The translations under genes were made by a program, and so were the position numbers. Below the pieces are notes generated by a model. The model made no database searches. It was not told the origin of the DNA and saw only the letters and a program-made list of their open reading frames with translations. DNA of 38,564 bases from a virus: the UHGV virus genome UHGV-1336581; one strand, given 5' to 3'. Below are positions 16,487 to 18,621 of this stretch, piece by piece. Within the stretch, counting starts at the first letter, position 1. Every line of letters starts with the position of its first letter.

Positions 16487-17260
16487 TCAAAAATTAGGTG
16501 AGTAACGGACTGGGGACATAGCTCCTTTTTTTCTTAATTCATCTGGTATTTTTTTTCCAAGATAAAGATTTGCTATTTCTGGTGGAGCTTCTCGACCTTC
16601 AAAACCATAGCGAGAACTTTGCGTTGCCTCAAAGTCAGGATCCTCGTCCCAGTATTTTATCGTAGGGAAGTTTTCACGTGTTGATTTGAGCCATTTATCA
16701 GCAATGAAAACCCCTCGAACGATCCCTCTTACAGTAGCAAGAATGACTTCTGCTTTACTGGCACGCGAAACATTAATGCGCCAGCTAAATCGAACCGCAT
16801 CATAAAGCTCTGAATCCTTTGCACTTCTGTTAACGGAAATCATTAATGCTTTATGATGAAATGTTATGGTTTCGGGTTGATATGTTGCTATCAACTCTTT
16901 GACATGCGCGGCACCGAATTCATTGCTGCCAGCTCCATTCATGATATTCGTTAACCCAGGGTAGGCATCAATAAGTGCTGCTTCAACTTCGTACGCCGTC
17001 TTTTCATCAGTCATTCCATGTCGATGGATGACATGGATAACTTCAAGTCCCGCTGATCTTATTTCTCTGATTTGCTTTAGCTTGTTGCTCAGTAACTCGT
17101 CATCATCAGCCGCTGCCACTTCACCGCGCATATGGGCAAATACGCGGTTACCTTTGCCTTTCCCTACATAGAAGGTGCTTCCGTCCCTAGGATCAATCAA
17201 TCGGTATACATACCAGCCAAGGTGTTCAATTACTCCAGAAGGAAACTCAGTAATATCCAT
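16487..17260 (-). CDS. GIY-YIG nuclease domain protein
   Basis: N-terminal [29 protein letters not shown] fits the GIY-(10-11 aa)-YIG...R pattern; I chose the MDITEF start; the track ORF extends to 17311. Confidence 0.6.
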
Positions 17261-17446
17261 TTTGCAATATCTGTGAATTATTTGTGAGACGTATATTAAT
17301 GAACATTGCAAGGGCTCACAACTAGTAGTGTTGAGAAAGCCATCGGGAAAATGAGGCTAACCCTTTGAATTTACATAGCGCAAAAAGATACCTTTCCTCA
17401 TAATGTGAGCTAATTTTATGTTTCGTTTGATGATCGGGTCGGTCTC

Positions 17447-17630
17447 GAAACCCGTAGCCACGTCGTATGCAAGAACGTGCTACGACTGGCTGGTGAACTT
17501 CCGATAGTGCGAGTATTGAATGATTTCCAACTGTTATCGATTTTGCGTATTTTTTGCATGAGAGGATTTTTACCTCCTCCCACCGATCCTCCATGGCTTT
17601 ACGCCAGTGTCTCTGGTCTGCTATGTGCCA
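17447..17630 (+). repeat. Cassette-boundary repeat, copy C (about 180 bp)
   Basis: GAAACCCGTAGCCACGTCGTATGCAAGAACGTGCTACG...GGCTGGTGAAC...GATAG...TTCCAACTGTTAT...TGAGAGGATTT...CCATGGC...GTCTCT...CTATGTGCC; same orientation as copy A. Confidence 0.7.
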
Positions 17631-17676
17631 AGAGCGGACTTTGCAAAATGGGGGTTATTTCAATCAAAACGTAACG

Positions 17677-18621
17677 TCACAACCAGCCGACGCTCTCTCG
17701 CCATTTATAATTAGTAACTTTATCATTTTCGCTTATTTTTTTAGATATAGAGCGCGGCTCTCTTCCTAGATACTCAGATATTTCTGTCGGGGACAAATCA
17801 AAATCGACAAGCATGACTCTAAGTTTTTCCATTTCCTTTAAAGTCCAAGGCTTGCCATAATTTTCATAAAGAGATACCTTATGCTCCCTAATAGTTCGCT
17901 TTCTCTGAGTTTCACTTTCCCTCTGAAAAATCTCGCTTTTAAATTGTGAACGGAACTCTTTACAGAAGTTGTTATCAGTTTTTTTGTTATATAGATTGCT
18001 AAAAATAAGCTGGGATGCCGGGTCTAAATCAGGTGTGTTAATAATGAAAACTTTGACCTTTTCCATATAGGGATATTCAATTTTACCCAATATGCTTAAT
18101 TGCTTTATATTAAAAAAACCTCTCAAATCAAAAGATTTAATGAGCTTTGATTGGATTACACTTTCAATCCTGCTTGCATTTGAATAACAGTACTTTGCCA
18201 TTGGAAGGGCCCATACTACCAGTTGAGGAATATATTTTTCTAATGCAATGCTCTGCCAATCAGTATCAAAGGTTTGGCTTTTTGCTAGCATGTTTTTCGG
18301 CAAATCAGAATACATTGTGGTAGATGCCCATATCTTATAATCATTCGCCAAGGCTTGATAGTATTTTGTGTGGTTATGAATTTTATAAGCTGACATGAAG
18401 CGATAAACGTCTTCGTCGTGACCAGCGTCGTAAATTGTTCGATTTCCTCTAAGATAACCGTCGTAATGTTCGGTTATCCTTCTACCTACATTACAACTTA
18501 CCCCAACGTAAACCACACGACTGAAAAGTCCTTTATGGACAATAAGATAAACTCCGCTACAGCCAGATTTCCTGGCCTCTGATAGAGAACCTAAAAATCT
18601 CCATTCCATAATTAAATCCAT
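17677..18621 (-). CDS. GIY-YIG nuclease domain protein with C-terminal HTH-like region (AT-rich)
   Basis: GVYLIVHKGLFSRVVYVGVSCNVGRRITEH (GIY-YIG-like with R and E); C-terminal WTLKEMEKLRVMLVDFDLSPTEISEYLGREPRSISKKI looks like a helix-turn-helix; visibly AT-rich. Confidence 0.55.
   Translation of the reverse strand: MDLIMEWRFLGSLSEARKSGCSGVYLIVHKGLFSRVVYVGVSCNVGRRITEHYDGYLRGNRTIYDAGHDEDVYRFMSAYKIHNHTKYYQALANDYKIWASTTMYSDLPKNMLAKSQTFDTDWQSIALEKYIPQLVVWALPMAKYCYSNASRIESVIQSKLIKSFDLRGFFNIKQLSILGKIEYPYMEKVKVFIINTPDLDPASQLIFSNLYNKKTDNNFCKEFRSQFKSEIFQRESETQRKRTIREHKVSLYENYGKPWTLKEMEKLRVMLVDFDLSPTEISEYLGREPRSISKKISENDKVTNYKWRESVGWL

What the first reader, a model, noticed from the sequence alone, without database searches (positions are those of the whole stretch)
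16487..18621. Two adjacent but dissimilar GIY-YIG nuclease-like genes, each in its own repeat-bounded cassette
Both proteins begin with a GIY-YIG-like motif pair with an arginine (and, in the second, a glutamate) at the expected spacing, but they differ in sequence, size and composition. The second is much more AT-rich and ends in an HTH-like segment. They are not tandem duplicates, so they were probably acquired separately. They could be defence effectors or homing-endonuclease-like selfish genes.
Basis: partly seen in the sequence, partly recalled or inferred. Interest (0 to 1): 0.55.

Follow-up and report, generated by a model that had tools for sequence, protein, structure and literature searches.

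The report
Stacked defence nuclease genes in prophage
The two genes are real, unrelated GIY-YIG nucleases at the cargo end of an E. coli prophage: the first is the already characterised anti-phage restriction enzyme CMoRE (PD-T4-3), and the second belongs to a small uncharacterised nuclease family that travels with defence genes on many mobile elements and is probably another single-gene phage defence.

Summary
Both minus-strand ORFs exist at the stated coordinates and show no detectable similarity to each other. The second is more AT-rich and ends in an HTH. Each sits behind its own copy of a repeat that begins at the stop codon of the prophage invertase gene pin.

Gene 1 (16487-17260) is already known. 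It is about 98% identical to crystallised E. coli O157:H7 CMoRE (PD-T4-3), a type IV restriction endonuclease that cuts 5hmC or glucosyl-5hmC phage DNA.

Gene 2 (17677-18621, 314 aa) has no name in any defence library searched. It is a divergent GIY-YIG nuclease with invariant Y25, Y38, G40 and E153 (R48 and H52 nearly so), a conserved insert of about 55 residues, and a C-terminal Myb-like HTH. Its family is small, with 141 representatives among 1.84 billion proteins. It is always a lone gene with no methyltransferase beside it. It occurs as a Vibrio integron cassette, beside AbiH, in the same island as Thoeris genes, directly after a BrxR/Wadjet-like cluster, in ICE cargo, on plasmids and in two kinds of E. 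coli prophage, but in no sequenced phage isolate.

The locus is a cargo hotspot between pin and the tRNA-Thr attR, and it also holds a PifA-like KAP NTPase. Gene 2 is most likely a stand-alone defence nuclease. That is inferred, not shown, and its target is unknown.

The parts
12679..13269 (+). pin, the serine DNA invertase of the prophage tail-fibre switch; it forms the conserved left border of the cargo slot
   Evidence: Pfam Resolvase 1.4e-50 plus HTH_7. Annotated pinE in related genomes. 20-nt inverted crossover-type repeats lie at 10747-10766 and 12634-12653.
13267..13460 (.). Repeat copy R1, the post-pin sequence. It starts at the pin stop codon; the first ~40 nt are the most widely conserved part.
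   Evidence: In 836 E. coli records, most homology to this flank stops at window ~13305.
13520..15856 (-). KAP-family P-loop NTPase resembling PifA; first cargo cassette, absent from strain 2009C-3133
   Evidence: Pfam KAP_NTPase 4.4e-41. PADLOC PifA 7.3e-79 over profile positions 4-708 of 720. The segment 13306-16426 is missing in L001.
16427..16466 (.). Repeat copy R2 (40 nt, 95% identical to R1), lying 3' of gene 1
16487..17260 (-). Gene 1: CMoRE / PD-T4-3, a type IV modification-dependent GIY-YIG restriction endonuclease (257 aa)
   Evidence: PADLOC PD-T4-3 6e-140 end to end. PDB 9U75 E 7.7e-172, about 98% identity over 257 aa. Pfam LEM-3_GIY-YIG 6.8e-15. Function from PMC12923530.
17449..17642 (.). 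Repeat copy R3 (195 nt, 77% identical to R1), lying 3' of gene 2. It ends in hairpin B (17616-17639, GTCTGCTATGTGCCAAGAGCGGAC).
   Evidence: RefSeq annotates a spurious 'capsid protein' fragment here.
17677..18621 (-). Gene 2: uncharacterised GIY-YIG nuclease with a conserved insert and a C-terminal Myb-like HTH (314 aa; the start may instead be M5 at 18609)
17616..18813 (-). The ~1.19-kb mobile unit that carries gene 2 (the ORF, ~60 nt downstream and ~190 nt upstream). It is 99.2% identical in three unrelated E. coli contexts.
   Evidence: blastn against L022 (lambdoid prophage at rspB) and L023 (IncFIA plasmid).
18789..18812 (.). Hairpin A remnant at the promoter-side end of the gene 2 unit (GTCCGTTCCTCGCTCATAACAGAC; the right arm is degenerate here)
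   Evidence: Comparison of the boundaries in the window, L022 and L023. It folds weakly in the window.
18785..19109 (.). Conserved right end of the prophage; right border of the cargo slot
   Evidence: 98% identical in L003, where a different gene (DUF6650) replaces gene 2.
19062..19109 (+). 3' 48 nt of a tRNA-Thr gene; this is the attR core of the prophage
   Evidence: Matches annotated tRNA-Thr genes in other E. coli genomes. ARAGORN finds no complete tRNA. Sequence read.
19274..20488 (+). P4-type tyrosine integrase of the next integrative element at the same tRNA site (not part of the prophage)
   Evidence: Pfam Arm-DNA-bind_3, Phage_int_M and Phage_integrase.

Best explanation
The interval is the accessory ('moron') slot at the right end of a myovirus prophage with a contractile tail and a Mu-type baseplate, related to e14, integrated in a tRNA-Thr gene of E. 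coli. The slot lies between the invertase gene pin and attR. It holds three independently acquired single-gene cassettes, all transcribed against the phage late genes.

(1) A PifA-like KAP NTPase.

(2) CMoRE/PD-T4-3. Its C-terminal domain reads 5-hydroxymethyl- or glucosyl-hydroxymethyl-cytosine, and its N-terminal GIYxY-YIG domain then cuts the modified phage DNA. This mechanism is published.

(3) A 314-aa protein from a small, uncharacterised family. It has a divergent GIY-YIG nuclease domain with a conserved insert of about 55 residues, then a long helix, then a Myb-like HTH.

For gene 3 the most likely function is a stand-alone anti-phage or anti-MGE DNA endonuclease. The HTH would place the enzyme on DNA and the GIY-YIG site would cut. 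Because it never has a methyltransferase or immunity partner, it must recognise something absent from host DNA: a base modification, a sequence or a structure. Alternatively it is kept inactive until infection. This step is inferred.

The cassettes were stacked by recombination at copies of the short sequence that follows pin, so each carries its own copy. This too is inferred, from comparison with genomes that have one, two or other cassettes.
For: Context. Baseplate, tail-fibre, invertible segment and pin genes lie to the left. A partial tRNA-Thr lies at 19062-19109.

Gene 1. PADLOC PD-T4-3 6e-140. About 98% identity to PDB 9U75. Y17/Y19/Y31 and the acidic AAADDDELL loop are present in the sequence (alignment). 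Mechanism from PMC12923530 and PMC12366544.

KAP gene. PADLOC PifA 7.3e-79.

Gene 2 is defence-type cargo. It is a Vibrio superintegron cassette between attC-like repeats. It sits next to AbiH in Aeromonas. In Salmonella it lies in an island that also carries Thoeris ThsA/ThsB genes, about 6.7 kb away. It sits directly after a BrxR plus MksE/JetD-like cluster in Thalassotalea. In Undibacterium, RES/HEPN-NTD and (faint) HNH genes lie 4-6 kb away. It is ICE cargo in Brenneria, lies in a lambdoid prophage and an IncF plasmid in E. coli, and here lies next to two known defence genes. No methyltransferase is adjacent in any context.

Independence. CMoRE is in 838 of 5426 E. coli genomes, gene 2 in 289, and the adjacent pair in 5.

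Stacking. Breakpoints against L001, L002 and L003 fall at the repeat copies.
Against: No experiment exists for gene 2. No paper mentions its RefSeq accession, and PADLOC 2023 has only a weak motif-level hit to candidate PDC-S14 (E 0.0075).

Association with defence genes is circumstantial. In Kosakonia the gene sits alone between housekeeping genes.

Nothing identifies the target. The C-terminal domain is a generic HTH with no significant sequence relative in the PDB.

Promoter-like sites in the region are no more frequent than in shuffled sequence, so expression is not shown.
Confidence: 0.6

Rival explanations
1. Gene 2 is a selfish, homing-type or mobilising endonuclease. It would cut a specific empty site, perhaps the hairpin-containing sequence found at its borders, and so promote copying or insertion of its own 1.19-kb unit. 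Any benefit to the host would be incidental.
For: The architecture (N-terminal GIY-YIG, linker, C-terminal HTH) is that of I-TevI and Seg-type homing endonucleases. The weak best matches are to intron endonuclease models (TIGR01453 E 0.0039; BFVD top hits). The same unit, 99.2% identical, sits in three unrelated E. coli replicon contexts. Its ends coincide with conserved hairpins A and B, and in L022 the unit is flanked by two B copies. There is a lone insertion between housekeeping genes in Kosakonia.
Against: No homologue in 50,697 phage records, where free-standing GIY-YIG homing genes normally live. TIGR01453 scores 17.3 bits against a cut-off of 56. The insertion contexts share no flanking homology, which homing by repair would need. 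Outside E. coli the hairpins are not found next to the gene, and hairpin B occurs in many genomes without the gene. In Vibrio the gene moves as an ordinary integron cassette. All 310 residues are under strong conservation across orders.
Confidence: 0.15
2. Gene 2 is an abortive-infection effector. The nuclease is held inactive, for example by its conserved insert or by DNA binding through the HTH. A phage cue releases it and it degrades host and phage DNA alike, killing the cell.
For: It is a single gene with no methyltransferase or immunity gene. It sits next to AbiH in Aeromonas and here two genes away from a PifA-like protein; PifA is a classical abortive-infection determinant (established knowledge). 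A highly conserved 55-residue insert lies within the catalytic domain, comparable in position to the auto-inhibitory loop described for CMoRE (PMC12923530). Relatives of about 210 aa lack the HTH altogether, so DNA-sequence reading is not essential to the core module.
Against: No sensor domain is recognisable. This reading cannot be separated from direct restriction with the tools available.
Confidence: 0.17
3. Gene 2 has no defence role. It would be a DNA-binding regulator with a degenerate nuclease domain, or a repair or recombination nuclease used by the mobile elements that carry it.
For: The Myb-like HTH is typical of regulators. In the lambdoid prophage it lies in the early region near regulator remnants.
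Against: All catalytic GIY-YIG residues are invariant or nearly so across the family. The gene occurs on many unrelated element types and as an integron cassette, so it is not tied to one element's biology.
Confidence: 0.08

Closest known systems
CMoRE / PD-T4-3 (E. coli O157:H7, PDB 9U75; Vassallo et al. 2022; Nat Commun 2026, PMC12923530)
   Same: Gene 1 is this protein: about 98% identical over all 257 residues, with the GIYxY-YIG motif, the acidic loop and the C-terminal modification-sensing domain. Gene 2 shares with it only the general plan of an N-terminal GIY-YIG domain plus a C-terminal DNA-reading domain in a single gene without a methyltransferase.
   Different: Gene 2 has no detectable sequence similarity to it (BLASTP E 7.9). 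It has a GVY motif rather than GIYxY, a 55-residue insert in the catalytic domain, and a Myb-like HTH in place of the CMoRE sensor fold.
wH-GIY-YIG type IV restriction enzymes Ahi29725I and Apa233I (PMC11037411)
   Same: A GIY-YIG nuclease fused to an HTH-class DNA reader, usually without a neighbouring methyltransferase, acting on modified DNA. This is a precedent for what gene 2 might do.
   Different: Gene 2 has a C-terminal Myb-like three-helix domain and resides in E. coli (a Dam+ species, from general knowledge), so it cannot have that specificity.
I-TevI and Seg-type GIY-YIG homing endonucleases
   Different: Gene 2 is not in an intron or in phage genomes. TIGR01453 is far below its cut-off. 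The catalytic domain carries a large insert, and the genomic contexts are defence islands and mobile-element cargo.
Eco29kI / Cfr42I / Hpy188I type II GIY-YIG restriction enzymes
   Different: No methyltransferase is adjacent in any of about ten contexts.
mcrA at the right end of prophage e14 in E. coli K-12 (from established knowledge of the K-12 map, not tested here)
   Same: It occupies the same slot, between pin and the attachment site of a related prophage, and is a modification-dependent nuclease.
   Different: McrA is an HNH enzyme, and e14 integrates in icd rather than in a tRNA-Thr gene.
Prophage and satellite defence hotspots (Rousset et al. 2022; Vassallo et al. 2022, PMC9519451)
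   Same: A variable set of defence genes lies between conserved phage genes and is exchanged between related prophages.
   Different: Those papers describe P2 and P4 hotspots. This one is the pin-to-attR slot of a different prophage family. I did not find it described, but I did not search exhaustively.

Membership tests
CMoRE / PD-T4-3 (gene 1) | Full-length match to the family profile and to a crystallised member | tested here: met
   PADLOC PD-T4-3 6e-140, residues 1-256 on profile positions 1-255 of 256. PDB 9U75 E 7.7e-172 and 9U7U E 8e-150, residues 1-257.
CMoRE / PD-T4-3 (gene 1) | GIYxY-YIG motif (Y17, Y19, Y31) and a negatively charged loop over the active site | tested here: met
   The sequence reads G15-W-Y17-V-Y19 ... 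F30-Y31-V-G33 and E46[10 protein letters not shown], identical to 9U75 in the printed alignment apart from one D/E change. The features are defined in PMC12923530.
CMoRE / PD-T4-3 (gene 1) | Cleavage of 5hmC or glucosyl-5hmC DNA and protection against T-even phages | not testable with these tools
   Published for proteins 98% and about 90% identical (PMC12923530). Not measured for this allele.
GIY-YIG nuclease superfamily (gene 2) | GIY and YIG motifs, Arg about 8-10 residues after YIG, and a metal-binding Glu | tested here: met
   G23-V-Y25, Y38-V-G40, R48, H52 and E153 are invariant in A1. In A3 (21-51% identity), G23, Y38, G40 and E153 remain invariant and Y25, R48 and H52 are at least 90% conserved.
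GIY-YIG nuclease superfamily (gene 2) | Score above the Pfam PF01541 gathering threshold | tested here: inconclusive
   The window protein scores 15.8 bits against a cut-off of 22.6. All 24 family members hit the model at E<=1, best 7e-6. Three clusters carry a precomputed PF01541 hit.
GIY-YIG nuclease superfamily (gene 2) | GIY-YIG alpha/beta fold | tested here: met
GIY-YIG homing endonucleases (gene 2) | Encoded in a group I intron, or free-standing between conserved phage genes, with a cognate empty site | tested here: not met
   No tblastn match in 50,697 phage records. Contexts are integron, ICE, islands, plasmids and prophage cargo. TIGR01453 scores 17.3 bits against 56.05.
Type II GIY-YIG restriction-modification (gene 2) | Cognate DNA methyltransferase gene adjacent | tested here: not met
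   None among the called or annotated neighbours in any context examined.
Type IV modification-dependent restriction enzymes (gene 2) | Nuclease domain fused to a recognised modification-reader domain, with no cognate methyltransferase | tested here: inconclusive
Known or candidate defence systems in PADLOC-DB 2.0.0 (gene 2) | Significant match to a defence-protein model | tested here: not met
   The only hit is PDC-S14 at E 0.0075 over residues 12-53, which is the GIY motif region.
PifA (neighbouring KAP NTPase, 13520-15856) | Full-length match to the PifA model and a KAP P-loop domain | tested here: met
   PADLOC PifA 7.3e-79, profile positions 4-708 of 720. Pfam KAP_NTPase 4.4e-41. Function not tested.

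The most novel reading that the evidence does not exclude
Gene 2 founds a new single-protein immunity family. It would be an extended GIY-YIG nuclease whose Myb/GcrA-like domain reads a phage-specific DNA mark or sequence that is not covered by CMoRE or the Mcr systems.

In addition, the hairpin pair found at its borders would be the recombination site of an integron-like cassette exchange system for defence genes in Enterobacterales. In other genomes that pair (A, about 20 nt, then B) sits next to a 200-aa tyrosine recombinase with variable cargo on both sides, and it is conserved as far as Alphaproteobacteria.
Probability: 0.1. Interest if true: 0.7.

Novelty: new member of a known kind. Interest (0 to 1): 0.35.

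Why it matters
Gene 1 adds nothing new beyond another natural context for CMoRE.

Gene 2 is a cheap, well-defined candidate for a new single-gene defence nuclease. It is one 0.95-kb gene with its own upstream region, present in 5% of complete E. coli genomes, with catalytic residues already predicted for mutant controls. If it restricts phages, its specificity would complement the modified-cytosine enzymes stacked beside it. That would show how prophages combine nucleases with different targets in one slot.

The pin-to-attR slot is itself a useful place to look for more candidates. It holds DUF6650, acyltransferase, 'lysogenic conversion' and FlxA-like genes in other strains.

Tried and rejected
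1. Tandem duplication of one nuclease gene. Rejected: BLASTP E 7.9.

2. A two-gene system (CMoRE plus gene 2). Rejected: the two are adjacent in only 5 genomes, against 838 and 289 carrying each alone.

3. The repeats as Pin crossover sites. The real crossover-type inverted repeats are AAACCTTGGTTTGGGAGAAG at 10747 and its inverted copy at 12634. The post-pin repeat shares only AAACC with them, so there is no support.

4. The repeats or hairpins as a known RNA. Rfam at E<=1 gave only a sub-threshold CssrB hit (25.6 bits against 76) at 16401-16463, and nothing at the hairpins.

5. Hairpin B as a high-copy REP element. Rejected for E. coli, where there is one place per genome in 637 genomes. The window copies fold no better than shuffles.

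6. Sequence-level kinship of the C-terminal domain to GcrA or another solved reader. Nothing below E 0.2.

7. Solved-structure relatives of gene 2 by sequence. Only chance antibody hits.

BFVD and Foldseek-PDB gave nothing significant.

9. Literature searches for gene 2 (accession WP_001742131; GIY-YIG with integron, hotspot or HTH terms) found no description.

10. Promoter and terminator scans were at chance level and were not used.
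Full report
WHAT IS THERE

The window is E. coli DNA. Positions 1 to about 19109 are the late-gene half of a myovirus prophage with a contractile tail and a Mu-type baseplate, of the kind that carries ymfQ, ymfR, tfaE and pinE as in e14. It has baseplate genes, tail-fibre genes and an invertible tail-fibre-assembly segment bounded by 20-nt inverted repeats at 10747-10766 and 12634-12653. It also has the serine invertase gene pin at 12679-13269.

The prophage ends at a 48-nt copy of the 3' end of a tRNA-Thr gene at 19062-19109. ARAGORN finds no whole tRNA there. 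A P4-type integrase of a second integrative element follows at 19274-20488.

Between pin and attR lie three genes on the minus strand, convergent with pin:
- 13520-15856
- 16487-17260 (gene 1 of the finding)
- 17677-18621 (gene 2 of the finding)

Their GC contents are 49%, 42.9% and 36.4%, against 56.6% for the structural genes.

GENE 1 IS KNOWN

Translated from the ATG at 17260, gene 1 gives 257 aa. This protein matches the PADLOC PD-T4-3 model end to end (E 6e-140) and Pfam LEM-3_GIY-YIG (E 6.8e-15). It is about 98% identical over its whole length to chain 9U75_A, CMoRE of E. coli O157:H7 (E 7.7e-172).

PD-T4-3 was recovered by functional selection against T4 (PMC9519451). A homologue was shown to cleave modified T4 DNA but not unmodified T4-GT7 DNA (PMC12366544). 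It is active in a natural host (bioRxiv 2024.12.20.629700). It was renamed CMoRE when crystal structures showed an N-terminal GIYxY-YIG nuclease, an acidic auto-inhibitory loop and a new C-terminal domain that binds 5hmC or glucosyl-5hmC (PMC12923530).

Y17, Y19, Y31 and the AAADDDELL loop are all present in the window protein (alignment). The gene occurs in 838 of 5426 complete E. coli genomes.

GENE 2 IS A REAL BUT UNCHARACTERISED NUCLEASE FAMILY

Sequence searches. The 314-aa product has only weak single-sequence hits: Pfam GIY-YIG E 0.017, TIGR01453 E 0.0039 and PADLOC candidate PDC-S14 E 0.0075. All cover only residues ~12-63.

Family. A database search found 72 clusters of full-length relatives of about 310 aa. 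They come from Enterobacterales, Aeromonas, Plesiomonas, Vibrio, Photobacterium, Pseudoalteromonas, Thalassotalea and Undibacterium. Where named, they are called 'GIY-YIG nuclease family protein'.

Conserved residues. In an alignment of 24 members (38-85% identity) the invariant residues include Y25, Y38, G40, R48, H52, E153 and N171. These are the GIY, YIG, Arg, His, Glu and Asn positions of the superfamily. All 24 members hit Pfam GIY-YIG, best E 7e-6.

Family size. An exhaustive profile search of 1.84 billion representatives found only 141 proteins at E<=0.001 and 17 at E<=1e-30. Many are proteins of about 210 aa that match only positions 1-208. The nuclease module with its insert is therefore the conserved core, and the C-terminal domain is an optional addition. 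In that wider set (21-51% identity) G23, Y38, G40, Y73, W98, E153 and the L178-G179 pair are invariant, and Y25, R48 and H52 are conserved in at least 90%.

Limits. No solved structure resembles the whole chain. The C-terminal domain has no significant sequence relative in the PDB.

WHERE GENE 2 LIVES

Within E. coli:
- It is in 289 of 5426 complete genomes, nearly always at 99% identity or more.
- It is on four plasmids.
- It is in none of 50,697 phage records.
- A 1.18-1.19-kb unit (window ~17616-18813) is 99.2% identical in this prophage, in a lambdoid prophage at rspB (the commonest context) and on an IncFIA plasmid.

In other taxa, homologues are found as follows:
- Vibrio parahaemolyticus: a cassette between ~120-nt attC-type repeats in superintegron arrays.
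- Aeromonas: adjacent to AbiH, downstream of guaBA.
- Salmonella: in an integrase/relaxase island that also carries Thoeris ThsA/ThsB and TIR genes, about 6.7 kb from the gene.
- Thalassotalea: directly after BrxR and a four-gene MksE/JetD-like cluster.
- Undibacterium: RES/HEPN-NTD, (faint) HNH and SAK_2 genes lie 2.5-6 kb away.
- Brenneria: in ICE cargo with ArdC and TerB.
- Kosakonia: alone between housekeeping genes.

No context has an adjacent methyltransferase or a conserved partner gene. This is the signature of a self-sufficient accessory gene that is selected on mobile elements and in defence islands. It is not the signature of a phage homing endonuclease or a type II restriction enzyme.

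THE CASSETTES AND THEIR REPEATS

The repeat copies. The sequence that starts at the pin stop codon (TGAAACCGTAGCA...) occurs three times, and each copy lies just 3' of one cargo gene:
- R1 at 13267-13460
- R2 at 16427-16466 (40 nt, 95% identical to R1)
- R3 at 17449-17642 (195 nt, 77% identical to R1)

Comparison with other genomes:
- Strain 2009C-3133 has pin, R2, CMoRE, R3 and gene 2, without the KAP unit. Relative to it, the window has gained 13306-16426 between two R copies.
- Strain 5735 has an invertase, R3 and gene 2, without CMoRE.
- Strain EC01307 has CMoRE and R3 followed by a DUF6650 gene instead of gene 2. Homology resumes at 18785-19109.
- Across 836 E. coli records, homology to the pin flank mostly stops about 36 nt after the stop codon.

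The slot is therefore bounded by pin plus R on the left and by the conserved prophage end on the right. The cassettes were stacked one at a time. I infer recombination at the short R homology as the mechanism. I found no similarity between R and the Pin crossover sites and no Rfam match.

MECHANISM

For gene 1 the mechanism is published.

For gene 2 I propose direct restriction, or alternatively an infection-triggered nuclease. The HTH would tether the enzyme to DNA and the GIY-YIG centre would cut, using Y25, R48, H52 and E153. Self-DNA would be spared in one of two ways. Either the target feature is absent from the host, or the conserved 55-residue insert holds the enzyme off until a cue arrives.

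Fusions of a winged-helix reader to GIY-YIG are proven m6A-dependent type IV enzymes (PMC11037411). Gene 2 cannot share their Dam specificity, because it lives in E. coli, which is Dam+ (general knowledge).

The structural likeness of its HTH to the GcrA DNA-binding domain is a lead only. GcrA is a reader of methylated GANTC; that point comes from my own knowledge and not from a tool.

My estimates:
- gene 2 is an active nuclease: about 0.9
- it is a defence gene: about 0.6
- it is modification-dependent: about 0.25

COMPARISON AND NOVELTY

Gene 1 is an already known system. The KAP NTPase beside it matches PifA.

Gene 2 fails the membership tests for homing endonucleases and for type II restriction-modification. 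It is not in PADLOC-DB 2.0.0. The literature held here does not mention its accession, and keyword searches found no description of such a protein.

Overall this is a new member of a known kind, namely prophage-borne single-gene nuclease defences in a hotspot. It is of moderate interest as an experimental candidate.

Noticed in passing
window 13520-15856 (-): A third cargo gene lies in the same slot: a 778-aa KAP-family P-loop NTPase that matches the PADLOC PifA model almost end to end (E 7.3e-79). It sits in a 3.16-kb unit flanked by 40-nt direct repeats and is absent from the otherwise near-identical locus of strain 2009C-3133.
   Followed up: partly
window 17616-17639 and 18789-18812; L022 6940-6963, 8114-8137, 8156-8179; L068 6001-6066; L069 6001-6071: The gene 2 unit ends in two related hairpins of the form GTCCGYT-N10-AGCGGAC. 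Hairpin B, or the pair A-20 nt-B, occurs once per genome in 637 of 5426 E. coli genomes. The exact B motif gave 44 hits in a scan of one genome per species, including Alphaproteobacteria, Idiomarina and Amphritea, without gene 2 nearby. In four loci it lies within a few kb of a 200-aa tyrosine recombinase with different cargo genes on each side. Its role (recombination site, terminator or REP-like element) is unexplained.
   Followed up: partly
L023 (plasmid NZ_AP022179.1) ~7950-9260: An IS110-family element is inserted inside hairpin B, next to the plasmid copy of gene 2. This fits the known preference of some IS110-family elements for palindromic repeats (my own knowledge).
   Followed up: no
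window 19062-19109 and 19274-20488: Two mobile elements are integrated in tandem at one tRNA-Thr site. The prophage ends in a 48-nt tRNA 3' copy. It is followed by a P4-type integrase and an island encoding an AntA-like protein (weak PADLOC PDC-S22 hit), an AAA_25 primase/helicase-like protein and a ClpP-like protease.
   Followed up: partly
window ~3000-4500: A strongly AT-rich insert (GC 28-30%) lies inside the prophage late region, which is otherwise 55-60% GC. It holds two ORFs: 3204-3731 with no family hit, and 3710-4354 with a Transgly (PF00912) domain. It looks like another moron.
   Followed up: partly
window 18799-18996: About 200 nt next to the prophage end are 88.6% identical to a segment of phage 21 and lambda-hybrid genomes (around 26.7-27.2 kb in the complete-genome records). 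The segment includes a 50-aa ORF (18844-18996) and a terminator-like hairpin at 18961-18982 on the minus strand.
   Followed up: no
window 17474-17554 (L001 21048-21128): RefSeq annotates a partial 'capsid protein' pseudogene inside repeat copy R3. It is the conserved post-pin sequence and probably not a gene remnant.
   Followed up: no
proteins P0089-P0144: Many distant relatives of gene 2 are proteins of about 210 aa that consist of the extended GIY-YIG module only, without the Myb-like domain. Their genomic contexts could not be examined.
   Followed up: no
window 36000-38000: A second long AT-rich stretch (GC 29-32%) lies at the right end of the window. It contains a 532-aa ORF (36109-37707) with only a sub-threshold TPD-motif hit.
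   Followed up: no
L046 (Trabulsiella odontotermitis) 3259-7995: Hairpins A-B lie between two HEPN-motif-like proteins and an E1-like/JAB-like gene pair. This suggests a defence island, judged only by reading the ORF translations.
   Followed up: no
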